Part shown: piece by piece, positions 16,235-38,312 of the stretch
Position numbering within the stretch: the stretch's first letter is position 1
Layout: every line of letters starts with the position of its first letter
Virus record (IMG/VR): IMGVR_UViG_3300048848_000255
Location: 1-40,659 of that record
Reading direction: 5' to 3' (one strand)
Length of the DNA stretch: 40,659 bases
Source: a virus
Taxonomy: Duplodnaviria; Caudoviricetes
Notes under the pieces: generated by a model
The model's input: the letters and a program-made list of their open reading frames with translations, nothing else
Told to the model about the DNA's origin: nothing
Databases searched by the model: none
Position numbers and translations under genes: made by a program

Positions 16235-17764
16235 ATGTTGTTTCGCGTCATTCCGTGGAACGGAAACCTTCCGACTTCTGGCAACAATGAAGTCTATCTT
16301 AGAATTGACCGATGGAACGACTACTCATTCGTTACGATGTTCCAAGTCTATTTATTTGATGAAATCGGTAAGTTAATAGAACTTGGCAGTGTAAAGATTG
16401 GGTTTTCCGGGCAGACCACTGACACCGCCACCCATATTGCATTAGGTCAAAGCTTCACTTCCCTTCCATCGCCATTCTTTTCCCTCGGCACGGACGTATC
16501 TTATTATCGGAAACTCGGAACTGAGGTTGGGCCGGTAGTCAGAGAATCGTACTGCCAAGCGCTGAGGGACGTGGTCTTCGACGAGAAATCGTTTGAAGTG
16601 GCAACAGGTGAACAAGTTTTCAAAACATCTCTACTTAGAGATAGTAGTTTGTCAGCTATACATGGACAATACAAACGCGTTCTGGCCGGGGGCGTTCCAC
16701 TGACAGACTTCATATTTCACTACAAGATTCCGCAATCCCATGATTTTGGCGGCTTAGAACTGCAAGTAGAGGTCACAGCAAATTCAAAGCCAAGGACCAA
16801 CGTTCATGCGATCATCGGTCGCAACGGAGTTGGGAAGACGACCATACTGAATGATATGATTTCGGCCGCAATCGACCCTGAGCGCGCACGTGGCAACTTT
16901 ATGGCTAGATCAATCTTCACCGATACTCCGATTGGCGACGATTACTTTAGCAGCGTCATATCCATATCGTTCAGCGCCTTTGACCCGTTTGACCCGCCAC
17001 GAGATCGACCGGATCCGGAATCTGGACCAGCTTACCATTACATTGGCCTGAAAGACACCGAAGGCGACGCACACACGAACCTCAAAGGCTTACCTAGGCT
17101 GCATGGCGAGATTGCTGGAAGCCTGCGCAAGGTGTTCAGCGAAACTGCGTCTCGCGAAAGGTGGGTCGCAGCGATCAAGACGCTTGAGTCTGACGAAAAT
17201 TTTGCCGCGATGAACCTAACCGACCTGTTAATGTACAACGGCGACTTCGACCAGAATGTGTTCCGTACTCTCAGAAGGATGAGTTCAGGCCACACGATTG
17301 CCATGTTAATCATGGCTCGACTTGTAGAAACTGTCCAAGAGAAAGCTTTGGTCCTTATCGACGAGCCGGAAAGTCACCTCCACCCTCCTTTGCTATCGGC
17401 GCTGACGAGATCCATAAGTGATCTTTTGTTTAATCGTAACGGAGTGGCTATCGTCGCCACGCACTCACCAGTCGTCTTACAAGAAGTTCCTCGGTCCTGT
17501 GTTTGGAAGATAACAAGGTCCAAATTGGCGGTGGCATTATCTCGACCTGAGATGGAGACATTCGGTGAGAATGTTGGAACTCTGACACGTGAAGTTTTCG
17601 GCTTGGAGGTGAGCAAATCAGGTTTTCATTCATTACTTGCTTCCGAGGTGAATTTGGGGCGAAGCTTTAATGAAGTACTAGAAGATTATTCCGGTCAGCT
17701 TGGCTTCGAAGCGCAAGCGATCTTGCAGGCGATGATAACTCAACGAGATCTGAAAGCGTCCTAA
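16235..17764 (+). CDS. ABC/AAA-type ATPase, Septu PtuA-like anti-phage component
   Basis: Walker A GRNGVGKT, signature MSSGH, Walker B/D-loop LIDEPESHLHP, H-loop ATHSP; AT-richer than the flanks. Confidence 0.8.
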   Translation: MLFRVIPWNGNLPTSGNNEVYLRIDRWNDYSFVTMFQVYLFDEIGKLIELGSVKIGFSGQTTDTATHIALGQSFTSLPSPFFSLGTDVSYYRKLGTEVGPVVRESYCQALRDVVFDEKSFEVATGEQVFKTSLLRDSSLSAIHGQYKRVLAGGVPLTDFIFHYKIPQSHDFGGLELQVEVTANSKPRTNVHAIIGRNGVGKTTILNDMISAAIDPERARGNFMARSIFTDTPIGDDYFSSVISISFSAFDPFDPPRDRPDPESGPAYHYIGLKDTEGDAHTNLKGLPRLHGEIAGSLRKVFSETASRERWVAAIKTLESDENFAAMNLTDLLMYNGDFDQNVFRTLRRMSSGHTIAMLIMARLVETVQEKALVLIDEPESHLHPPLLSALTRSISDLLFNRNGVAIVATHSPVVLQEVPRSCVWKITRSKLAVALSRPEMETFGENVGTLTREVFGLEVSKSGFHSLLASEVNLGRSFNEVLEDYSGQLGFEAQAILQAMITQRDLKAS

Positions 17765-17768
17765 GGTC

Positions 17769-18623
17769 ATGCGGCGGTTAGATGTTCCACTCAACGACCC
17801 AGGCCTGCTTTTCGACGCATGCGTGGCGGAGCTCTCAGACCCAGCAAGCGAGGCCAGATTTGCTGCCGAGAAAGCCAATGTAGTAGGTGCTTACGCGCTA
17901 TACGATGTCGCCTCGGCTGCTAGATCTTGGCATGCTCTGCCCCGCTGCAGAAGAGGCGAGCCAGATCAAGTTGTCGTAGGAACTCTAACGAAAGGGGAAA
18001 TCAGGGCCTTATATTCAGAGTGCATGGTTGCGTCACGCGGCCCCGCTCGCGATGCTTATGATAGCATATTGGTCGCTGCCGCAGGGCGATGCCCTTATTG
18101 CGGCGGCATCGGACACGCGGCAACTCTCGACCACTATTTGCCCAAGGCTTATTTCCCAACCTATGCGGTTAAACCTCAGAATCTCATTCCGAGTTGCCAA
18201 GACTGTAACAAAGGACTTGGCTCATCATTTCCAACTACAGCCAACAAGCAATCGCTCAACCCATATTACGACGATGCTAAATTTTTCAACGAAAGGTGGA
18301 TCAAGATAGAGTTCTTTAGTAATAGTATTTACAAGTTTCGGTACAAGGTTGAACCACCGCTCGGGTGGTCAAACATAGATAAAGATCGAGCGCTGTCCCA
18401 CTTCGATGCATTTAAGTTAGAGAATCGTTATGCCGTAGAAGCAGCAGCTGAGATAACTAATGTACTCTTTCTTAAATCAACATTAGGGGCCGGCTACACG
18501 CCTGATAACATGGAAAGAATAATTGATGTACAAGCACGATCTCCGGCTTTTGATCTTAATGGGTGGAGACGTACATTTTACGAGGGGCTAAAAGCAGAAA
18601 GATGGTTTTTTGAAAATATTTGA
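17769..18623 (+). CDS. HNH endonuclease, Septu PtuB-like
   Basis: CPYCG...TLDHYLPK..FP....NLIPSCQDCNKG, LNPYYD; starts 4 nt after the ATPase stop. Confidence 0.82.
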   Translation: MRRLDVPLNDPGLLFDACVAELSDPASEARFAAEKANVVGAYALYDVASAARSWHALPRCRRGEPDQVVVGTLTKGEIRALYSECMVASRGPARDAYDSILVAAAGRCPYCGGIGHAATLDHYLPKAYFPTYAVKPQNLIPSCQDCNKGLGSSFPTTANKQSLNPYYDDAKFFNERWIKIEFFSNSIYKFRYKVEPPLGWSNIDKDRALSHFDAFKLENRYAVEAAAEITNVLFLKSTLGAGYTPDNMERIIDVQARSPAFDLNGWRRTFYEGLKAERWFFENI

Positions 18624-22410: not shown

Positions 22411-25400
22411 ATGGCATTCCGTCACGGCATCACCGTTACCGAGATCCCGTCCGGCATGGCCGGCGGCGGCTCCCCCAGCGCCCCGAACATCACCAGCGTC
22501 GATCCCGGCGGCAGCTTCCCCGAAGGGCAGGCCGTCGCCGGCAGGCTCACTGCCACCGTCCCGGTGACCTGGAGCGTGATCGGCACGGACGCGGGGAAGG
22601 TCACGCTGGATGCGACCACCGGCGCATGGTCGCTGGAGCCGACCAATCACGGGGTCAAGGCGAGCTACGCATGGACCTTCATCGCGACGGATGCGACCGG
22701 ACAGACGGACCAGCAGCCGGTGACGATCGCCATCACCGATGTCGTCAGCGTCACGCTGGCCGCGCTGACGCTGTCCGCTTCCGTCCTGGCCGAAGGTGCC
22801 GCACCGGGCGCCACGGTCGGAACCCTGCAGGCGATCAGCAGTGGATCCACGCTGTTGCTCATGGCTAATGCCGGCGGCCGCTTCCAGCTTGACGGCACCG
22901 CCATCCAGGCCGGGCCGACCGCGACCGATTACGAGACCGGCGCACTGCACCAGGTGACCGTGCGCGAGACGCATCCGGACGCGCCTGCGCCCGGCTACCG
23001 CGACACCACCCTGACGATCGCCATCGGCAATGTCGCCGAGCAGCCTGCGCTGGGTGCACTGCTGCTCAGCACCACCAGCCTCACCAGCGGCCAGCTGGTC
23101 ACGATCAACATCACGGGCGCGACCGCCGGCAGCACGATCACGGTTGCCAGCGGTGCGCTCAATGCAGGCCTGGCGCTCAACAGTGCGGCGCGGACCATCA
23201 CCGGCACTCCGACCGCGCTGGGCAAGGTGGACTTCGAGCTGAACGAAGCCCTGCCCGATAGCCCGACGCCCAACCGCAGGTCGCCGCTCTCGCTGACCGT
23301 CACGGCAGCGGCACCCGCGCCGGCGCTGACGCTGACCGGCCCGCTGGCCTATGAGGCCGATGCGGCTGCGGGCACCACCGTGGCGAACATCGGCAACGTC
23401 CCTGCGGGCTCCACGCCGACGATCACGCCGAACGATGGGCGGTTGGCCGTCGCCGGCAACGCCGCGGATGGCTGGCGCGTGGTCAAGGGTCTGACCGCTT
23501 CTGCCGCTGGCACCTTCAACCTCACCGCGGCCGCTGCCGGCGCCACTTCCGCAACGGCCGCGGTGACCGTCACCGCCGCCGCTGCCACGGGCTGGGCGAT
23601 GGGCCTCGCCCGCACCCCGGCCTATGTGCCGCAATGGACTCGCCCGGCCACGATCGCGGCGGGCAAGGCCAACGGCTCGATCCCGGCCGATGCGATCGAG
23701 TTCGAGACGGGCAACAATGGCGGACCGTTCAGCGCCGACGCAGCAGGCTGGGCGGCCTTCATGGATGCGTGCAACGCGGCCGACAAGCCGGGAGCGATCC
23801 AGACGCCGCTGCCTGCGCTGACCGGCGTAGCCCGCAAGTATCTGTACCGGGGCCTTTACGGCGCTGGTCCGCAGGATGTGCTGATCAAGCGAACCGATCG
23901 GACGACCGGCACCCGCACCTCCCTGTGGATGGTCTGGAAGAACAAGCCGATCATCCGCGGCATCGAGTTCGACAGCCATGCCGGCATCATCGGTGTCACC
24001 TATCCGCGGCATCGCCTGGCCAAGGTGGAGAAGGTCAACGACGTAGACACCTGGCTCTCCCACGGGAACCCGTACTTCACCAGCACCGAACCGACCCAGC
24101 AGTCATTCGGTGCTGTTGCGACGACGTTCCCGGTCGGGCAGCTGGGCACGATCATCCTCAACGGCAACGTGAACATCACCGGGCTGAGCGTTGTCTACCA
24201 GCGGGCAACCACCGTCGACGTTGGACAGCCTGACCCGACGGGTCCGCGCATGACGGCGAAGATCCTGGACACGGATTGGTATGCTGAATGCGAGACGGTT
24301 CAGCTGTTCGCGGCCGGGCAGGCCGCCTGCACTACCCATGCCCAGGTGCGCGATGCGATCAATGCCAACAGTGCCGCGACTGGCTACCTGGCGGAACTGA
24401 ACGACGCCGGCCAGGTCCGCCTGACACACGACAGCGTTACGCTGCCCCGGGCGCCTGACGAGATCAATGCCGCTTACAGTGGCAGCGGAACCGTCTCGAC
24501 TTACAACCGCACGCCTGATTTCGACCTGAGCCACAACACGCTGACGGACTGCAATCAGGGCTATGGCGCGGTGCTGGACGCGCTGGAGCTCGGCTTCGTC
24601 ACGATCTGCAACAACAAGTGCCCTGGCACCTGGAACCTGCTGTCCGCGCCGGTCCTGCGGTGGTCTGGACTCCATGCGGCAGGCAACCACTGGTCCGATT
24701 GCATGCTGACCCGGCCGACTGCGGTGGGTCGCACCAACAGCCGCTTGCCGCGCGGGTCAAGTCTGACCGGACACAACACCCTGTTGTGGCTCGGCAACGA
24801 TAGCAACGCCCGCATGCGCTACCACGGCGCGATGGGCGGGAATATCTGCCTGATCGAGAACAACCAGGTGGAGAACGTCGAGAGCGCCAACGACACCGAC
24901 ACGGTGAACGCGGCGGTGCTGGCTGACATTCGCAACGCCTGGCAGAACACCGCGCTGGGGCGGATCGTGCGTCGAGCTTACAACCACGTCGTCCACCTGG
25001 TCGGCGTGGTCGGACCGATCGACTGCAACGTCTTCTACAGCAAGGATCGCGGCGGCTCCTACGTCGCGAACTACATGCGGGACTTCGGTGCTGCCTACTA
25101 CGATGCCAATCGCAAGGGCTCGGAAGCTGCTGCCATTCTGAAGAAGAACCCCGGCTCCTACTATTCGACTGTTGCCGGCGTTGCGGCGTTCGGCATTCCC
25201 GGCAACGCAGCGGCGCCGGGCGGTGGAGCCGAGCCGGAACCGATGGTCTACCGAGGCAACACGATGATCGACGGACCGGATGGGACCGCCTGGGTCAAGA
25301 GTGACGAGGACGGCGCCTACACCATCATCGAGCAGAACCTGTTCGATGGCTGGGACAACCAAAAGGCCGGTGTGGATCAGACAGGCGGCAGCACTTCCGG

Positions 25401-25827
25401 CCTGATCCGCGTGACCACCCACCAGTTTGGCGGGCAGGTGAACGGTAATTTCTTCATCCGCTGCAACCCGCGATCGTCGACCAAGCGACTGATCAACTTC
25501 TGGAACATCACCGCCGTCGGTACGCACGATGGAGCGCGCTGGCAGGTGAGCGGGAATCAGTTCCAGCAGACGGACACCGCCTACACCGCCGATACTCCCC
25601 TGGTCACCTACAACGGCACGACGGTGAACAGCCTGCGGTCCAATTTCCGGGTCGGCACCAATCCCATCCTTGATGCTTCTGAGGCGCCAACCGGGTTCAA
25701 GTTCCTGCTGGTCGAGGACAGCAACGCGGTCTTCAACGGCACGCCGGTCGCGCAAGCGCCCCTTTACGGGTCGGCGGACTTCCTTGCAGCATATGGCGTC
25801 GATCCGATGCCGTTGCTGGCAGCCTGA
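22411..25827 (+). CDS. 1138-aa probable virion appendage (cadherin/Ig-like repeats + beta-rich C-terminal domain; possible adhesin or depolymerase)
   Basis: Thr/Ala/Gly/Val-rich beta-sandwich repeats (EGAAPGATVGTL, GRFQLDG, TDYET; putative-Ig motif VASGALNAGLALNSAARTITGTPT); Asn-rich repeats (IENNQVENV, YRGNTMID, IEQNLFDG, VNGNFFIRC, VSGNQF) suggest a beta-helix. Confidence 0.65.
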   Translation: MAFRHGITVTEIPSGMAGGGSPSAPNITSVDPGGSFPEGQAVAGRLTATVPVTWSVIGTDAGKVTLDATTGAWSLEPTNHGVKASYAWTFIATDATGQTDQQPVTIAITDVVSVTLAALTLSASVLAEGAAPGATVGTLQAISSGSTLLLMANAGGRFQLDGTAIQAGPTATDYETGALHQVTVRETHPDAPAPGYRDTTLTIAIGNVAEQPALGALLLSTTSLTSGQLVTINITGATAGSTITVASGALNAGLALNSAARTITGTPTALGKVDFELNEALPDSPTPNRRSPLSLTVTAAAPAPALTLTGPLAYEADAAAGTTVANIGNVPAGSTPTITPNDGRLAVAGNAADGWRVVKGLTASAAGTFNLTAAAAGATSATAAVTVTAAAATGWAMGLARTPAYVPQWTRPATIAAGKANGSIPADAIEFETGNNGGPFSADAAGWAAFMDACNAADKPGAIQTPLPALTGVARKYLYRGLYGAGPQDVLIKRTDRTTGTRTSLWMVWKNKPIIRGIEFDSHAGIIGVTYPRHRLAKVEKVNDVDTWLSHGNPYFTSTEPTQQSFGAVATTFPVGQLGTIILNGNVNITGLSVVYQRATTVDVGQPDPTGPRMTAKILDTDWYAECETVQLFAAGQAACTTHAQVRDAINANSAATGYLAELNDAGQVRLTHDSVTLPRAPDEINAAYSGSGTVSTYNRTPDFDLSHNTLTDCNQGYGAVLDALELGFVTICNNKCPGTWNLLSAPVLRWSGLHAAGNHWSDCMLTRPTAVGRTNSRLPRGSSLTGHNTLLWLGNDSNARMRYHGAMGGNICLIENNQVENVESANDTDTVNAAVLADIRNAWQNTALGRIVRRAYNHVVHLVGVVGPIDCNVFYSKDRGGSYVANYMRDFGAAYYDANRKGSEAAAILKKNPGSYYSTVAGVAAFGIPGNAAAPGGGAEPEPMVYRGNTMIDGPDGTAWVKSDEDGAYTIIEQNLFDGWDNQKAGVDQTGGSTSGLIRVTTHQFGGQVNGNFFIRCNPRSSTKRLINFWNITAVGTHDGARWQVSGNQFQQTDTAYTADTPLVTYNGTTVNSLRSNFRVGTNPILDASEAPTGFKFLLVEDSNAVFNGTPVAQAPLYGSADFLAAYGVDPMPLLAA

Positions 25828-25875: not shown

Positions 25876-26001
25876 CCCCCTTTACGGAAGGGGGTCTCGG
25901 ATGTCCCCACATCCCTGAAACCAGCGAGCCTGCACTCGCACTCTATGGGCAGCGCGCCTGCCCCCATTCGAGTACCCTTCCGCGTCACAGGCGCGGAAGG
26001 G
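25876..26001 (+). promoter_or_regulatory. Five-hairpin structured leader upstream of the adenine methylase
   Basis: CCCCCTT/AAGGGGG, GGATGT/ACATCC, GCGAG/CTCGC, GGGCAG/CTGCCC, CCCTTCCGCG/CGCGGAAGGG. Confidence 0.55.
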
Positions 26002-26022
26002 GCTTCGTGCAGGAACATCATC

Positions 26023-26841
26023 ATGTCTACCCCTTTTGTTCTCGTTTCCCCAACTGCGCCTGCTGCCGGCTACATCGGCGGCAAACGCAACCTTGCTAAG
26101 CGTGTCTGCGCCCTCATCGATGCCACTCCGCATACCAGCTACGCCGAACCGTTCGTCGGCATGGGCGGCATCTTCCTGCGCCGCACGCGCCGTCCCCGCG
26201 CCGAGGCGATCAACGATATCTCCGGTGACGTGGTGGGCCTGTTCCGCTGCCTGGCAGAGCATTACCCCTACCTGGTCGACATGCTGCGCTTCCGGGTCAC
26301 GAGCCGGGCGGAGTTCCAGCGCTTGCTGGCGGTGGCGCCGGAGACCCTGACGGATCTGCAGCGCGCCGTGCGCTTCCTCTACCTCCAGCGCCTCGCCTTC
26401 GGCGGCAAGGTGTCGGGGCGCAACTTCGGCGTCGACGCCGCCGCGCCAGCGCGGTTCGATGTTGGCAAGCTGGAGCCTATGCTCGCCGACATCCACGATC
26501 GCCTGCAGTCCGTCGTGATCGAGCGCCTGCCCTATGGCGACTTCATCCGCCGCTACGATCGTGATGGCGCCCTGTTCTACCTCGATCCGCCCTATTGGGC
26601 CTGCGAGACGGACTATGGCCCCGATGTCTTTGCGCGCGAGGACTTCGCCGCACTGGCGGCGCAGCTCGCCGGCATCAGGGGCAAGTTTCTGATGTCGCTG
26701 AACGACACGGACGGCGTTCGCGAGACCTTCGCCGCCTTCGAAGTGCAGGCGATCGACACCACGTACACGGTTGGCAGCAAGGCCCGGCCGGCGCGCGAGG
26801 TGCTGATCAGCAACTATCCGCTGGCCGCCAACGACGCCTGA
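26023..26841 (+). CDS. Phage N6-adenine DNA methyltransferase (D12 class)
   Basis: YIGGKRNL, YAEPFVGMGGIF (motif I), INDIS, FYLDPPY (motif IV), EVLISNY; ATG 26023 with AGGA RBS. Confidence 0.92.
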   Translation: MSTPFVLVSPTAPAAGYIGGKRNLAKRVCALIDATPHTSYAEPFVGMGGIFLRRTRRPRAEAINDISGDVVGLFRCLAEHYPYLVDMLRFRVTSRAEFQRLLAVAPETLTDLQRAVRFLYLQRLAFGGKVSGRNFGVDAAAPARFDVGKLEPMLADIHDRLQSVVIERLPYGDFIRRYDRDGALFYLDPPYWACETDYGPDVFAREDFAALAAQLAGIRGKFLMSLNDTDGVRETFAAFEVQAIDTTYTVGSKARPAREVLISNYPLAANDA

Positions 26842-33462: not shown

Positions 33463-33873
33463 ATGCACCTGATGGCCCTTGGCATGTTCCTCTTCCAGAT
33501 CGGAACGCTCGGCGTGGACGAGCTGCAGCGCCGCAGCGACTGGCAGCACGCCCGCAGTCCGCGCATCGGTGCCCGCGACGCTGCGCAGTTCCTCGGCCGG
33601 GGGGACGAGACGATCAGCCTGTCAGGCACGATCTACACCGAACTGGCGGACGGGCGGGTGTCGCTGGACGAGCTGCGCACCATGGCCGATGCCGGCGAGA
33701 CGGTGCCGCTGGTCGGCGGCGATGGCACGATCTGGGGCAGCTTCGTCCTGCTCTCGATCGATGAGAAGCACACCAGCCTGATGACGGACGGCACGCCGCG
33801 CCGGATCGACTTCGGCATTGAGCTGCTGCGCCTGGACGATCCGGCGCCGGCGGCGGCGGAGCCAGCGGCATGA
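33463..33873 (+). CDS. U: Tail protein U
   Basis: LMALGMFLF, LQRRSDWQH, QFLGRGDETISLSG, DGTPRRIDF. Confidence 0.93.
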   Translation: MHLMALGMFLFQIGTLGVDELQRRSDWQHARSPRIGARDAAQFLGRGDETISLSGTIYTELADGRVSLDELRTMADAGETVPLVGGDGTIWGSFVLLSIDEKHTSLMTDGTPRRIDFGIELLRLDDPAPAAAEPAA

Positions 33874-34886
33874 TCTCCAACGTCCCCGATTGGCGCGTCA
33901 CGCTCGACGACGTGGATCTGACCGATCGCATCCGCCCGCGCCTGGTCTCCCTCACCCTGTCGGAAAAGCGCGGCGACGAAGCCGACCAGCTCGACATCGT
34001 CCTGTCCGATGCCGATGGGCGCCTCGCCATTCCGCCCGAAGGCGCGGTGCTGCGCGTCCACCTGGGCTGGCTGCAAGGCTCGGACGTCACGCCCGGGCTG
34101 ATCGACAAGGGCGCCTTCAAGGTGGACGACGTCACCCATTCCGGCCCGCCCGATCGGATCGCCATCAAGGCGCGAGCGGTCGACTTCAACAGCGACATCC
34201 GCAACCGCCGCTCGCACAGCTGGACGCGCACCATGCTGGGCACCGTGCTGCAGGCGGTCGCTGGACGCAATGGCCTCAGCGCCCGCGTGGCGGCCGATCT
34301 GGGCGCGATCGCACTGCCGGCGGTCCACCAGAGCCGCGAAAGCGATATCGCCTTCCTGCGCCGTCTGGGGCGCGAACACGACGCTGTGGCGACCATCAAG
34401 GCCGGCGCTCTGATCTTCGCCCGCACCGGCGCCGGGCGGACTGCCAGCGGGCAATCCCTGCCGTCGCTCACCCTGACCCGCCGCGATGGCGACGGGCATA
34501 GCTGGCAGCGGCAGCAGCGCGACGGGCAGACCGGCGTCACCGCCAGCTGGCACGATCGCGCCGGCGCCAAGCGGCAGACGGTGACCGTAGGCAAGGCGGA
34601 CGGTGCAAAGCGCCTGCGCCGCGTCTACCCGGACGAGGCCAGCGCCCGGCGCGCGGCCGAAGCGGAACGCGCCCGCCTGGCGCGGGCGCCGGCCACGCTG
34701 GATATGCGCCTGGCGCTCGGTCGACCCGATAGCTTCCCGGAAGCACGGGTCACTGCCACTGGCTTCAAACCAGAAATCGACGCAACCACCTGGTTGATCA
34801 GCGAGGTGACGCACCGGCTCGACAAGAGCGGCGGCTTCCGAACCGATTTGCGAATGGAGACCGTCAACTTACCGCCAATCGGCTAA
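33870..34886 (+). CDS. D: Baseplate hub / late control protein D
   Basis: RLVSLTLSEKRGDEADQLDI, KGAFKVDDVTHSGPPD, QSRESDIAFLRRL, GFKPEID..WLI.EVTH. Confidence 0.95.
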   Translation: MISNVPDWRVTLDDVDLTDRIRPRLVSLTLSEKRGDEADQLDIVLSDADGRLAIPPEGAVLRVHLGWLQGSDVTPGLIDKGAFKVDDVTHSGPPDRIAIKARAVDFNSDIRNRRSHSWTRTMLGTVLQAVAGRNGLSARVAADLGAIALPAVHQSRESDIAFLRRLGREHDAVATIKAGALIFARTGAGRTASGQSLPSLTLTRRDGDGHSWQRQQRDGQTGVTASWHDRAGAKRQTVTVGKADGAKRLRRVYPDEASARRAAEAERARLARAPATLDMRLALGRPDSFPEARVTATGFKPEIDATTWLISEVTHRLDKSGGFRTDLRMETVNLPPIG

Positions 34887-34937
34887 TTCGGCGAAATGCG
34901 TGCAGGGGCTAGACGAGCCTCACTTTGGCTGCTGAAT

Positions 34938-35789
34938 ATGGCCGAAAGGGGCCAATCGATCGTGCGTGTAAATGTAAGTCCGTTTCTGAAATGGGCGGGC
35001 GGCAAGCGTTGGCTGAGCCCGGCCTTCGTGGATCAATTTGCCGAGTTGCACGGCACTTATCGGGAGCCCTTCCTAGGTTCAGGCGCGGTGTTCTTCCGGC
35101 ATCTGCCCCTCAAAGCGAGCCTCTCCGACGCCAATGCGGAATTGATCGAGTGCTACAAGGCAATTCGCGACGACGCGATTGCTGTTATGCAAGCACTGGA
35201 AGTCCTAGCCGATCGTCACCCGGATGAAGCTTACTATGAGGTCCGGTCAATGAAGCCCGAGTCCATCGCGGCGCGTGCGGCCCGCTTCATATACCTTAAT
35301 CGAACCTGCTGGAACGGTCTCTATCGAGTCAACTTGAAAGGTGACTTCAACGTACCCCGCGGCACGAAAAGCCGCGTTCTGCTAGACGATGATAACTTCT
35401 TGGCTGTAGGAGCTGCGCTGGCCAACGCAGATGTCCAATCTCGTGACTTCGAAGAGAACATAGATGAGGCCGTCGCTGGTGACCTGATATTTTGTGACCC
35501 GCCGTATACCACAGCTCACAATTTAAATGGCTTCATCAAGTACAATCAGCGGATTTTTAGTTGGAACGATCAGCAAAGATTAGCGGCTGCAGTGAAGCGG
35601 GCGATCGTTAGAGGCGCGATCGCTATTGTGACAAACGCTGATCATCAAGACGTTCGGGAACTCTACGCCGATTTCCAAACGGTTCGATCTGTTGGGCGAG
35701 CTAGCGTGATTGCGGCGGCATCTGCCAATCGTAGACGAACCACCGAGTTAGTTATATCAAACACTGCTCTCGCTTTGGAGCAGGTGTAG
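34938..35789 (+). CDS. dam: Dam-type N6-adenine DNA methyltransferase (probably GATC)
   Basis: PFLKWAGGKRW, YREPFLGSGAVF, SDAN, YLNRTCWNGLYRVNLKGDFNVP (EcoDam/DpnM-like recognition hairpin), DPPY; the start may be GTG 34962. Confidence 0.88.
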   Translation: MAERGQSIVRVNVSPFLKWAGGKRWLSPAFVDQFAELHGTYREPFLGSGAVFFRHLPLKASLSDANAELIECYKAIRDDAIAVMQALEVLADRHPDEAYYEVRSMKPESIAARAARFIYLNRTCWNGLYRVNLKGDFNVPRGTKSRVLLDDDNFLAVGAALANADVQSRDFEENIDEAVAGDLIFCDPPYTTAHNLNGFIKYNQRIFSWNDQQRLAAAVKRAIVRGAIAIVTNADHQDVRELYADFQTVRSVGRASVIAAASANRRRTTELVISNTALALEQV

Positions 35790-35802
35790 GAACTCCGCGC
35801 TG

Positions 35803-36363
35803 ATGAACTTGGATAATTTTCCAATCTTGAAGACGCTTAGTGTCTGCACGCGATCTGCGCGGAGAAGCGCAAGAGTCGAGTTATTATGGAACATCGGATT
35901 TGCCTTCATTCCCGTTTTTATCGTGATCATGATAGTCGTGTTTACTGAAAACATAGCTGGCATGCTCAAACAGGTATTCGCCGTTTTGGGACGAGGCGAG
36001 CTAATGGTATATGCAGCGTCAGTATGTGGAGCAACACTTTACGCGTTGCGTCATAGCATTGACGGACCCCTGCCAGAAGGCATCAAGCATCGGGTAACTC
36101 CCTTAGGAACTCTCTCCACCGTCACAGCAGTCTGTATGGTCGTTGCCCTAATATCCTACCTCGTACGACGAATGGGCGATCTCTACAACATCGCCGTAAA
36201 CGAGTATCTACTTAACACACTGTCAATACTTGCATTACTGTTCTCCGTGCTGGTGGCATATGTAGTCTTTTCCTTGAAGTTCTCACTGGATAGCGGCGCC
36301 GCACGAGCATCTTACGAGCAAACAGAAGACTTCAAGACGCAATGGGAGCAGAGAGATGCTTGA
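35803..36363 (+). CDS. 4-TM membrane protein of unknown function
   Basis: Four hydrophobic segments; 13 nt after the dam stop and overlapping the next gene by 8 nt. Confidence 0.8.
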   Translation: MNLDNFPILKTLSVCTRSARRSARVELLWNIGFAFIPVFIVIMIVVFTENIAGMLKQVFAVLGRGELMVYAASVCGATLYALRHSIDGPLPEGIKHRVTPLGTLSTVTAVCMVVALISYLVRRMGDLYNIAVNEYLLNTLSILALLFSVLVAYVVFSLKFSLDSGAARASYEQTEDFKTQWEQRDA

Positions 36364-37516
36364 GCTTCCTGATCCTGTCGACGCGACCAATATATCTCTC
36401 GAAATTACCGCCATTCGCGCCCGCCAACCGATCGGCGACATCTACATCGGCTCAGTCGACGCTGCGACCTTGGTGAAGATCACCGACTTTGACGTACGAA
36501 GGGTTATCGGAGAGGAGCGAGACGTCGAGCGATACCTTGGTATCCAACGGCCACTTGATAAGCGTCGAGTTGGGCAGCTCGAGAATTATGTGAATTTTCG
36601 AGATGCAACATTTCCTACAGCTTGCATCCTCGCGATTGAAGTGGATTACGCAGACTACAATGAAGACACTAAACTGCTGGAGATACGGAACTTCAGGGAA
36701 GGCGACCCGACTCCATCTAAGAGCATCCGGCACATCGCAAGGGTGCTGGACGGCCAGCACCGCATCGCCGGTTTGAAGAGCTTCAGCGACGGCATTTTCG
36801 AAGTGCCTGTCGTGTTCTTTGTTGGTGCCGATATCGCTGAACAAGCTAACATATTTTCTACCGTTAACCTTGAACAGAACAAGGTTGGTAAAAGCTTGGC
36901 CTATGATTTGTTCGCATTGGCAAAAACACGTAGTCCGCAAAGGCTCGGGCATCAGATTGCAGTCGCTTTTGACTCTGATCCTAAGAGCCCCTTCTACAAG
37001 CGCATCAAACGCCTAGGTGTCGCAACCCCTGGTCGATATAAAGAGACAATCTCACAGGCTCAGTTCGTTGAGGCTTTGCTCGATCTTATCTCGAAAGATC
37101 CCAAGGTTGATCGCGACATCCTCTTGAGAGGCGAATCTATACCGCGCCCTGACGCGAAAGAAGCCGAGCGGTATATCTTCCGGGATATGTTCATTACCGG
37201 CAGAGACATAGACATTGCGCGGTCACTAGATGCGTACTTTCAAGCTGTGCGCGACCAATGGCCAGACGCTTGGGACGCTTTTGGGAAAGGTTATGTTCTA
37301 AACAAGACAAATGGCTTCCGCGCCCTGATGAAGCTTTTACGCCCTGTTTACCTGCACCTTTATGGAATGAACGACGTGATGCAGCGCGACGATGTGAAAC
37401 TATTGCTGGAAAATTCCAAAATTAAGGATGATTATTTTACTACTGAGGTGTTCAAGCCAGGCACGTCTGGCGAGTCACAACTCTTCAAAGAGCTTCGCGA
37501 TTCAATAGGGGTCTGA
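36356..37516 (+). CDS. DGQHR-domain protein (DndB/ParB-Srx-like fold)
   Basis: GIQRPLD..RV, FP...ILA, VLDGQHRIAGL, EQANIFSTVNLEQNKV.KSL.YDL. Confidence 0.9.
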   Translation: MLELPDPVDATNISLEITAIRARQPIGDIYIGSVDAATLVKITDFDVRRVIGEERDVERYLGIQRPLDKRRVGQLENYVNFRDATFPTACILAIEVDYADYNEDTKLLEIRNFREGDPTPSKSIRHIARVLDGQHRIAGLKSFSDGIFEVPVVFFVGADIAEQANIFSTVNLEQNKVGKSLAYDLFALAKTRSPQRLGHQIAVAFDSDPKSPFYKRIKRLGVATPGRYKETISQAQFVEALLDLISKDPKVDRDILLRGESIPRPDAKEAERYIFRDMFITGRDIDIARSLDAYFQAVRDQWPDAWDAFGKGYVLNKTNGFRALMKLLRPVYLHLYGMNDVMQRDDVKLLLENSKIKDDYFTTEVFKPGTSGESQLFKELRDSIGV

Positions 37517-37542
37517 CTAAGTTATGGCCTCACTTCGGGCGC

Positions 37543-37959
37543 CTAGTCGTCTGGCCAAACTTCATCCGAATAGAACCCCACATTGGCCATTGAAGCTGGA
37601 TCCAACTCCTCAACCTGGACCAGCATCGCCTCTGTCATTACCGGCACCTCACCATCAAACGCCACCCTGATCCAGGCCCCGAACTCAGCCGCCCGTTGGA
37701 ACACCGCCTGCACCTCCCGCTCGCCCAGCAACGCGCCGATGCGCGGTGCGCGCTCGGCCGAGAGGTAGCCAAGCTGGACGCCGCGGCAGGATAGGACGGC
37801 GATCGCGTGCGGGTCGAACTTGTTGCGGGGTTCCGGGTGCAGCTCCACCGGCTCGCCTGGTTTGCAGAGCAGGATCTCGAAGCGGCGATTTGAGCCGTCG
37901 GCATTGGGGAACTGTGCGCCGACCACCGCCAGCGAAATCGAAGGAACGGGTTCTGGCAT
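37543..37959 (-). CDS. HIRAN-domain protein
   Basis: LAVVG..F, GEPVELHPEPRNKFDPHAIAV, QLGYL; start set at ATG 37959. Confidence 0.85.
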   Translation of the reverse strand: MPEPVPSISLAVVGAQFPNADGSNRRFEILLCKPGEPVELHPEPRNKFDPHAIAVLSCRGVQLGYLSAERAPRIGALLGEREVQAVFQRAAEFGAWIRVAFDGEVPVMTEAMLVQVEELDPASMANVGFYSDEVWPDD

Positions 37960-37979
37960 TGTAGGTCCAGCTATACTGA

Positions 37980-38312
37980 TCAGCGTGAACGGCGGCCGGC
38001 GAGCACCCATCTGACCGCCACAACACATACGGCAACCACCGCCCAAAAGGCGACTGCGGCCCCTGCAGCAATCCCGAACGACATGGCTAGGATGCCGATC
38101 TCGCTCATCGAAACCCAATCTGACAAGCAGGATTGCTGGTCGGCGCGGCAATACTGACCGGCGTAGCGCAACTGCTCGGCCTTCGCGCTGGATAGGCCGA
38201 GGTAGGCTATGACGCTATAAGCCAGCAGCCAGAGTGCGGTTACGACAATGCCAGCTCGCTGCCAGACACCGTGCCGCAGCCCCATGCCGCTCTGTTGTCC
38301 TACCTGGATCAT
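37980..38312 (-). CDS. 2-TM membrane protein co-transcribed with cI (possible superinfection exclusion)
   Basis: Two hydrophobic helices around a loop with a Cys pair; 4-nt overlap with the cI stop; the start may be 38285. Confidence 0.55.
   Translation of the reverse strand: MIQVGQQSGMGLRHGVWQRAGIVVTALWLLAYSVIAYLGLSSAKAEQLRYAGQYCRADQQSCLSDWVSMSEIGILAMSFGIAAGAAVAFWAVVAVCVVAVRWVLAGRRSR

What the first reader, a model, noticed from the sequence alone, without database searches (positions are those of the whole stretch)
34938..37516. Dam methylase + 4-TM protein + DGQHR protein: candidate undescribed methylation-linked defence system
Seen: three tightly coupled genes (13-nt gap, 8-nt overlap), AT-richer than the phage backbone, inserted between gpD and the immunity region, with no recognisable restriction endonuclease beside the methylase. 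Known: DGQHR/DndB-type domains are ParB/Srx-fold nucleotide-binding modules used in DNA-modification-linked systems (Dnd, Pbe); small multi-TM proteins are common abortive-infection effectors; P2-like prophages carry defence cargo; alphaproteobacteria normally use CcrM rather than Dam. Inference: Dam marks self DNA, the DGQHR protein senses unmarked DNA or loss of the methylase, and the membrane protein triggers arrest. This would be an RM-like system with a membrane effector in place of a nuclease. I do not recognise this trio as a named system, but a relationship to a described DndB-domain system cannot be excluded.
Basis: partly seen in the sequence, partly recalled or inferred. Interest (0 to 1): 0.85.

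Follow-up and report, generated by a model that had tools for sequence, protein, structure and literature searches.

The report
Methylase-guarded membrane defence cassette
Three coupled genes (a DNA adenine methylase, a small membrane protein and a ParB-like "DGQHR" protein) sit in a prophage's defence-gene slot and recur across many bacterial phyla with an exchangeable methylase; they likely form an undescribed immune system in which DNA lacking the host's methyl mark would set off the membrane protein instead of a DNA-cutting enzyme.

Summary
Among 151 non-redundant relatives of the DGQHR protein, the membrane gene lies directly upstream in 127 of 132 testable loci. A DNA amino-methyltransferase is adjacent in 85 of 92 loci with both flanks.

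The methylase is exchangeable: Dam-like 65, MT-A70 14, long D12 5, N4/N6 1. The tree forces at least 12 changes of the MT-A70 label, so the link likely runs through the methyl mark, not a protein contact. The Dam keeps its GATC-reading residues. The substitutes often sit beside BglII/BstYI-family nucleases, hinting at a shared GATC core (untested).

The closest prophage relative has an empty site here; others carry CBASS, PARIS or true Dazbog genes in the same slot. The cassette is not Dazbog or Dnd/Dpd, matches no PADLOC 2.0 system, and was not found in ten literature searches.

Best reading (inferred, 0.45): unmarked DNA activates the DGQHR NTP switch, which triggers the membrane protein and arrests the cell. 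No function or complex was tested; the complex-prediction queue was full. The scan noted this module before on another genome (e1-726010).

The parts
34938..35789 (+). Dam/DpnM-like D12 N6-adenine DNA methyltransferase, 283 aa, of a clade tied to DGQHR modules; predicted GATC specificity (alternative in-frame start 34896)
   Evidence: PF02086, TIGR00571, PDLC03266 297 bits; best PDB match DpnM/M.DpnII 168 bits, E. coli Dam 96 bits; K18, N126, L128, R130, N132, P140 align with EcoDam K9, N120, L122, R124, N126, P134 (their role in GATC reading is recalled); conserved in 59-61 of 61 clade members
35803..36363 (+). Four-helix membrane protein, 186 aa, of an unnamed fast-evolving family; inferred effector
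   Evidence: No consistent Pfam, PADLOC or NCBIfam family over 122 members; hydropathy; AlphaFold pLDDT 93, pTM 0.83; upstream of the DGQHR gene in 127 of 132 loci
36356..37516 (+). DGQHR protein, 386 aa: ParB/Srx-fold nucleotide-binding domain (about 20-176, DGQHR at 132-136) plus helical C-terminal domain (about 188-386); inferred DNA-modification sensor
   Evidence: TIGR03187 191 bits, TIGR04172 175 of cut-off 450, PF14072; model matches PadC Z 7.3 (rmsd 3.2, 100 aligned), KorB Z 5.9, sulfiredoxin Z 5.3; C-domain resembles that of TIGR04172 proteins, TM 0.79
33870..34886 (+). P2-type gpD tail gene, left boundary of the insert (context, not part of the system)
   Evidence: PF05954, phrog_52
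37543..37959 (-). HIRAN-domain gene, right boundary of the insert (context); follows gpD directly in the empty-site relative L178
   Evidence: PF08797

Best explanation
The cassette is likely a methylation-gated anti-phage system in which the methylase is predicted to mark GATC-containing sites in the cell's own DNA, the DGQHR protein would detect DNA lacking that mark, and it would then switch on the membrane protein to arrest or kill the infected cell. Shown: gene content, linkage of the pair to a methylase in 85 of 92 loci, repeated methylase exchange, location in a defence slot, intact catalytic and nucleotide-binding motifs, ParB/Srx fold. Inferred: the GATC target (strongly for the Dam clade, weakly for the substitutes), NTP binding and DNA loading by the DGQHR protein, contact between DGQHR and membrane protein, and membrane damage as the output. 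The trigger could be incoming unmethylated phage or plasmid DNA, or host DNA that becomes unmethylated when a phage blocks the methylase or destroys SAM. The second case would make the pair a back-up for R-M, which fits loci where it sits beside a full MT-A70 + BglII-family pair.
For: (1) Linkage: membrane gene upstream in 127 of 132, methylase adjacent in 85 of 92 (82 of 85 within 300 bp), after clustering 164 loci at 90%. (2) Exchange: four methylase families; on a 121-row DGQHR tree the MT-A70 label needs at least 12 changes and long D12 at least 4 on starred branches; position and strand vary. This points to the DNA mark rather than a protein contact. (3) DGQHR and membrane-protein distances co-vary (Spearman 0.58, permutation maximum 0.16) much more than DGQHR and Dam (0.21, maximum 0.20), n=61 (kinship inflates such values). 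(4) Of three GTDB loci with an intact pair, wide flanks and none of the four methylases, two genomes hold the same MT-A70 clade elsewhere (354 and 394 bits) and one a Dam (167 bits); the MT-A70 clade occurs in 14 of 200 sampled Alphaproteobacteria. (5) Reverse test: all 3 hits of this Dam clade in 400 sampled Alphaproteobacteria adjoin a DGQHR gene, two with the membrane gene and one fused to a NERD nuclease; so a nuclease and the membrane protein fill the same slot. (6) The same prophage slot holds CBASS (L196), PARIS AriAB (L194), Dazbog (L223), DUF262 + HEPN + C5 methylase (L181) and PDC-M66 (L185). (7) ParB/DUF262 domains sense DNA modification and gate effectors in SspE and GmrSD/BrxU (passages of PMC10952713 and PMC12065111). 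(8) L139 holds an intact DGQHR gene with both the Dam and most of the membrane gene missing, against its 99.7% twin L140 (a single case, misassembly possible).
Against: No phenotype, expression or binding data exist. 7 of 92 informative loci have none of the four methylase families; L108 and L159 are intact pairs on metagenome contigs where supply in trans could not be checked, and of five genomes searched one (G005, locus L051 with a short flank) had neither family. The sites of the MT-A70, long D12 and N4/N6 substitutes are not established, and RGATCY can be marked as m4C (R. blasticus, PMC6256690), so the mark need not be the same base. The membrane family has almost no invariant residues (median identity 19% against 48% for DGQHR), which fits an anchor or phage-protein sensor equally well. 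In SspE the self-mark stimulates the NTPase, the opposite polarity. GATC is not depleted or strongly enriched in the prophage (420 seen, 378 expected).
Confidence: 0.45

Rival explanations
1. The DGQHR protein is itself the restriction factor (clamping, nicking or NTP depletion on unmethylated DNA), and the membrane protein only anchors it or alerts it at the DNA entry site; the cell survives.
For: The DGQHR protein is the conserved part, with many invariant charged residues outside the motif (D46, R48, Y60, R65, D252, R253, R276). ParB/Srx proteins are described with nuclease and NTPase activity (PMC10853773). The membrane protein is highly variable. Kiwa and Zorya as membrane-anchored models are recalled, not from a call.
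Against: Related DGQHR proteins next to the same Dam clade carry a separate NERD nuclease domain (L253), suggesting the DGQHR domain needs an added effector. Only 1 of 122 members weakly hits KwaA (E 0.007).
Confidence: 0.2
2. Reverse polarity: the methyl mark switches the DGQHR NTPase on (as phosphorothioate does for SspE), or the pair senses foreign modification (as proposed for Dazbog), and a separate phage cue fires the membrane protein.
For: SspE NTPase is triggered by the self mark; Dazbog is toxic with a phage cytosine methylase. A few intact pairs lack a neighbouring methylase.
Against: Sensing foreign marks would not need a co-encoded methylase in 85 of 92 loci. Licensing by the self mark is not excluded.
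Confidence: 0.13
3. A selfish addiction module: after the cassette is lost, methylation dilutes and the pair kills the cell; any phage defence is a side effect.
For: Patchy, mobile distribution (prophage, plasmids, low-GC islands); rare (0 of 400 other genomes of the G002 class). The same biochemistry as the best reading would give this effect.
Against: It occupies a slot filled by bona fide defence systems in sister prophages, and it also sits beside R-M pairs that would already be addictive.
Confidence: 0.1
4. A regulatory module: the DGQHR protein is a DndB-like NTP-dependent repressor that tunes the methylase, with the membrane protein as signal input; no killing.
For: DndB is reported as an ATP-dependent repressor of modification genes. 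Distant DGQHR proteins with a similar small membrane gene sit inside Dnd clusters.
Against: The methylase lies upstream, downstream or on the opposite strand, and the same methylases function in type II R-M pairs without the module (11 of 14 sampled MT-A70 genes have a BglII-family neighbour and none the pair). DndB models score only 15-20 bits.
Confidence: 0.1

Closest known systems
SspE (SspABCD-SspE), GmrSD/BrxU and DndI: ParB/DUF262 NTPase modification sensors
   Same: A ParB/Srx-fold domain with a DGQxR motif followed by a helical domain, linked to a DNA modification state.
   Different: Those carry an HNH/DUF1524 nuclease and read phosphorothioate or modified cytosine. Here the family is PF14072, not PF03235; there is no nuclease; the partners are a membrane protein and an amino-methyltransferase. 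DndI was seen only in a search listing.
Dazbog (DzbA-DzbB)
   Same: A ParB-like protein plus a partner; abortive infection tied to DNA methylation; found in the same prophage slot (L223).
   Different: No hit to DzbA or DzbB models; profile comparisons with L223 DzbA and DzbB give probabilities 0.2% and 0.08%. Dazbog responds to a foreign cytosine methylase, and its first gene is the DUF262 protein.
TIGR04172 'DNA phosphorothioation-associated DGQHR protein 1' and DndB/DpdB
   Same: Full-length similarity (175 bits) and a similar C-domain; in five Dnd-linked loci a 176-206 aa hydrophobic gene also lies directly upstream.
   Different: Below the cut-off (450), 24-27% identity; no dnd or dpd genes here. 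Their membrane gene is not detectably homologous (HMM scores within the shuffled range; hhalign probability 6%). TIGR04172 is itself only a hypothetical equivalog.
Type II R-M: DpnII/Dam-type and MT-A70 + BglII/BstYI-family pairs
   Same: The same methylase families; the pair adjoins MT-A70 + BglII-family genes in 8 of 22 MT-A70 loci.
   Different: No endonuclease in this insert, nor a BglII-family one in 52 wide-flank Dam loci; a two-gene sensor/membrane pair takes its place.

Membership tests
Dazbog | DzbA (DUF262-type) matching PADLOC PDLC03835 | tested here: not met
   No hit at E<=0.1 or in 10 related DGQHR proteins at E<=0.05, while true DzbA at L223 scores 383 bits; hhalign 0.2%
Dazbog | DzbB partner | tested here: not met
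   No DzbB hit in 122 membrane proteins; hhalign 0.08%
Dazbog | Toxicity triggered by a phage cytosine methylase | not testable with these tools
   Needs experiment (paper passage)
Dnd / Dpd modification systems | dndCDE or dpdA/C modification genes in the locus | tested here: not met
   The insert holds only three genes; no such family recurs in 3 or more of 82 loci
Dnd / Dpd modification systems | DndB, DpdB or TIGR04172 equivalog above its curated cut-off | tested here: not met
   14.8 of 328, 73.1 of 300, 175.5 of 450 bits
DGQHR domain family (TIGR03187/PF14072, ParB/Srx fold) | Family score over cut-off, DGQHR, QR and FxxxN motifs, ParB/Srx fold | tested here: met
   190.8 of 58.85 bits; Q64-R65, D132-R136, F167/N171 invariant; PadC Z 7.3, rmsd 3.2, 100 aligned
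DGQHR domain family (TIGR03187/PF14072, ParB/Srx fold) | NTP binding or hydrolysis | not testable with these tools
   One DndB-like protein binds ATP and GTP (passage of 10.1101/2025.10.10.680097); not shown for this clade
GmrSD / SspE / DndI | DUF262 domain fused or paired with a DUF1524/HNH nuclease | tested here: not met
   No PF03235 or HNH hit in the three proteins at E<=0.1; the C-domain model is helical
Type II R-M (DpnII/MboI type) | Active GATC N6-adenine methylase | tested here: inconclusive
   DPPY, the FxGxG motif and the recognition hairpin are intact; activity and site not measured
Type II R-M (DpnII/MboI type) | Cognate endonuclease gene adjacent | tested here: not met
   None in the insert; BglII family in 0 of 52 wide-flank Dam loci; no other recurring nuclease family
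Kiwa or CBASS/retron/SLATT membrane effectors | Sequence match to KwaA, 2TM/4TM effector or SLATT models | tested here: not met
   At most 1 of 122 members per model, E 0.002-0.007
Kiwa or CBASS/retron/SLATT membrane effectors | Shared fold | tested here: inconclusive
   Only generic helical bundles, best Z 8.3
Systems in DefenseFinder or catalogues after 2023 | Match to their models | not testable with these tools
   Only PADLOC-DB 2.0.0 (2023) and NCBIfam 20.0 are held

The most novel reading that the evidence does not exclude
A restriction-modification logic wired to a membrane effector: a ParB-like NTP switch reads the methylation state of GATC-core sites regardless of which of four unrelated methylases wrote the mark (even one encoded elsewhere in the genome), and converts 'unmarked DNA' into membrane damage. 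With the nuclease-fused and Dnd-linked versions, it would be one branch of a modular family of DGQHR sensors with plug-in modification writers and plug-in effectors.
Probability: 0.4. Interest if true: 0.87.

Novelty: new variant of a known kind. Interest (0 to 1): 0.7.

Why it matters
It would be a self/non-self system that uses ordinary adenine methylation but needs no nuclease, and a guard against phage anti-restriction tricks. It gives a testable function to the large, poorly understood DGQHR/DndB family, and explains a clade of seemingly orphan Dam genes in alphaproteobacteria as system components. The test is cheap: isogenic dam+ and dam- laboratory E. coli and dam+/dam- grown phage give a direct yes or no.

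Tried and rejected
Rejected: Dazbog, Dnd/Dpd, GmrSD/SspE, Kiwa and classical type II R-M membership (see membership test). Rejected: that Dam is a chance neighbour (85 of 92 loci have a methylase; all 3 clade hits in 400 genomes adjoin DGQHR genes). Rejected: that the partner must be Dam.

No fused or longer forms of the membrane protein were found (weak by the tool's own note). The DGQHR profile has no PDB sequence match. Foldseek gave no match at E<=0.001 for either model. VIA-align gave only generic helical matches for the membrane protein and the DGQHR C-domain; the C-domain was not modelled alone. The ESM Atlas gave only unnamed clusters for the membrane protein.

The complex prediction (DGQHR + membrane protein) never ran because the queue was full; no verdict. 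No RNA holder was listed. No sigma-70-like promoter was found in 34300-38300. The specificity of the MT-A70 clade could not be fixed: no paper held both 'MT-A70' and 'RGATCY'; the BglII-family neighbour had no PDB match; M. capsulatus MCA0246 (651 bp, RGATCY) fits by size only. Homology of the Dnd-linked membrane genes to this family was tested and not shown. IMG/VR holds only one other copy with these queries.

Literature searches: Dazbog+DndB, DGQHR, Dazbog, PF14072 (38), DndB+adenine methyl+transmembrane+anti-phage+abortive infection, MT-A70+RGATCY, RGATCY+methylome+alphaproteobacteri, DndB+phage+transmembrane+methyltransferase, MT-A70+BglII+others, DndB since 2023 (40 of 59 listed). None showed this trio.
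Full report
Observation. The three ORFs, the 13-nt gap and the 8-nt overlap are as reported. The window is a P2-like prophage (integrase, portal, terminase, major head, sheath, tape measure, gpD). The 2.65-kb insert has GC 0.51 against 0.68 for the tail genes. The closest prophage found, L178, aligns at 88% through gpD and has the HIRAN gene 9 bp after it, so the cassette is a discrete insertion.

The slot is a defence hotspot. I fetched 59 gpD relatives and scanned 41 hand-picked, mostly low-GC genes downstream of gpD from 20 of them. Ten of the 41 hit PADLOC at E<=1e-8: a CBASS cyclase with 4TM effector (L196), PARIS AriAB (L194), Dazbog DzbA and DzbB (L223), a DUF262 + HEPN + cytosine methylase trio (L181; domains), a second DUF262 gene (L190), PDC-M66A/B (L185) and one weak hit (L203); I count L181 as two hits. 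Most of these phages are distant relatives (gpD 43-48%); L181 is close (76%).

The parts. The methylase is a D12 enzyme closest in the PDB to DpnM (168 bits) and E. coli Dam (96 bits). It keeps DPPY and the positions matching EcoDam K9, N120, L122, R124, N126 and P134, with W or F at Y119, in 59-61 of 61 clade members. That these residues read GATC is recalled knowledge. The DGQHR protein models well (pLDDT 88): a ParB/Srx domain (PadC Z 7.3, rmsd 3.2, 100 aligned; KorB 5.9; sulfiredoxin 5.3) and a helical C-domain shared with TIGR04172 proteins. PMC12065111 (passages) describes a conserved helical domain after the ParB domain in DndB, GmrSD and SspE; I did not test that this is the same domain. 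The membrane protein belongs to a coherent family: a profile of 48 seeds recovered 28 of the other 29 upstream genes at E<=4e-9. It has no known family.

Conservation of the module. I left out L002 (duplicate of L001) and L086-L091 (24-28% identity). The membrane gene lies directly upstream in 127 of 132 loci with enough flank. Of the five misses, L065 and L085 have a hydrophobic gene of the right size below threshold, L060 and L062 have truncated DGQHR genes, and L139 is a truncated cassette. Among 92 loci with both flanks, 85 have a methylase: Dam-like 65 (56 upstream on the same strand, as here), MT-A70 14, a long D12 type 5, N4/N6 type 1; seven have none. The methylase profiles were built from members of this same set and classed by Pfam and PADLOC. 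Named hosts span 13 phylum labels on the tree. The module is rare: none in 400 other genomes of the G002 class and two in 400 Alphaproteobacteria found through the Dam query.

The methylase is exchanged, the pair is not. On the DGQHR tree (121 rows, quick method, SH-aLRT only) the MT-A70 label needs at least 12 changes on starred branches, and sister pairs such as L011/L012, L020/L148 and L046/L058 differ in methylase. DGQHR and membrane distances correlate at 0.58, DGQHR and Dam at only 0.21, although nearest neighbours agree about equally (50 and 49 of 61). Unrelated enzymes in varying positions are unlikely to share a binding surface, so I infer that the pair depends on the methyl mark. BglII-family nucleases accompany 8 of 22 MT-A70 loci and two long-D12 loci, and none of 52 wide-flank Dam loci. 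BglII and BstYI cut GATC-core hexamers (recalled), which hints that all writers converge on GATC. I could not establish this.

Loci without a methylase. For L033 and L063 the genome holds the same MT-A70 clade on another contig (394 and 354 bits), and for L054 a Dam (167 bits) plus a large NPPF-motif methylase-like ORF 750 bp downstream. Background for the MT-A70 clade is 14 of 200 Alphaproteobacteria, which is not the class of L063 or L054. L044 also has it, but its contig ends 934 bp upstream, so it may be adjacent. L051's genome gave neither family. L108 and L159 are intact pairs that could not be checked. These are small numbers.

A wider family. All three members of this Dam clade in 400 sampled genomes adjoin a DGQHR gene; the one without a membrane gene has a 798-aa NERD nuclease-DGQHR fusion. 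One MT-A70 gene adjoins another DGQHR gene with an unclassified 447-aa partner (L248), while 11 of 14 sit in ordinary BglII-family pairs. Distant DGQHR proteins in or beside Dnd-type clusters also have a small four-helix membrane gene upstream (five loci), though homology to this family was not shown. I followed that lead from scan note e1-726010, which reports this same module in another genome; notes on nuclease- and HEPN-bearing versions shaped the 'effector slot' wording. I had found the methylase exchange before reading them. They are leads, not support.

Mechanism. Best reading (0.45): mark, sense the absence of the mark, fire the membrane protein. Every step after gene content is inferred. 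Rivals: DGQHR as the effector with a membrane anchor (0.2), reverse polarity as in SspE or Dazbog (0.13), addiction (0.1), regulation (0.1). Anti-invader function in the broad sense I put near 0.8. The complex prediction did not run, so contact between the two proteins is open.

Known or new. It is not Dazbog, Dnd/Dpd, GmrSD/SspE, Kiwa or type II R-M by the tests listed, and ten literature searches did not show it. What I saw of papers: passages of 10.1101/2024.10.26.620412, PMC12065111, PMC4619093, 10.1101/2022.08.27.505566, PMC10952713, PMC11711589, PMC13390346, PMC10609329, PMC4738411, 10.1101/2025.10.10.680097 and 10.1101/2025.10.09.681413; section 10 of 10.1101/2022.05.11.491447; abstract, passages and sections 16-17 of PMC10853773; the whole of PMC6256690; listings only for the rest. 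No supplements were opened; neighbourhood tables there, subscription papers, and DefenseFinder models could already list the pair. Verdict: a real, undescribed, well-bounded candidate system, a new variant of modification-linked ParB-sensor defence. Interest 0.70.

Noticed in passing
window 16235-18623 (+): A second low-GC insert (about 0.50) among the structural genes: ATPase (PDC-M01A 654 bits, PtuA 600 bits) + HNH protein (PDC-M01B 301 bits), a Septu/PDC-M01-like defence pair.
   Followed up: partly
window 25945-26841 (+): The prophage has its own second DNA methyltransferase (phrog_56, DPPY), only 25% identical to the cassette Dam; its site is unknown.
   Followed up: partly
window 37543-37959 (-): A HIRAN-domain gene conserved beside cI in related prophages (L176, L178, L185); weak PDC-M03B hits.
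   Followed up: partly
window 22411-25827 (+) and 37980-38312 (-): A 1138-aa ORF in the tail region with no PHROG hit at 1e-10, and a 110-aa hydrophobic ORF just downstream of cI with no family.
   Followed up: no
L087-L091: TIGR04172-like DGQHR genes in or beside Dnd-type clusters each have an unannotated 176-206 aa membrane gene upstream; in L091 the pair lies between dptH and dndE. A parallel, phosphorothioate-linked version of the same architecture.
   Followed up: partly
L253 4387-6783; L248 1005-3886: The same Dam clade next to a NERD nuclease-DGQHR fusion; MT-A70 next to a DGQHR gene plus an unclassified 447-aa partner.
   Followed up: partly
L139 4825-6385 versus L140: A truncated copy (end of the membrane gene + intact DGQHR gene, 99.7% identical) in another context, flanked by two copies of a 155-bp repeat.
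   Followed up: partly
L086 3479-5104: Bacillus plasmid: a four-helix membrane gene + DGQHR gene (28% identity) with no annotated methylase or dnd gene beside it; membrane homology not significant.
   Followed up: partly
L181 7811-10672; L190 10438-12214: DUF262 + HEPN (+ cytosine methylase in L181) cassettes in the same prophage slot: the same sensor-effector-writer logic with other parts (L190's second gene not classified).
   Followed up: partly
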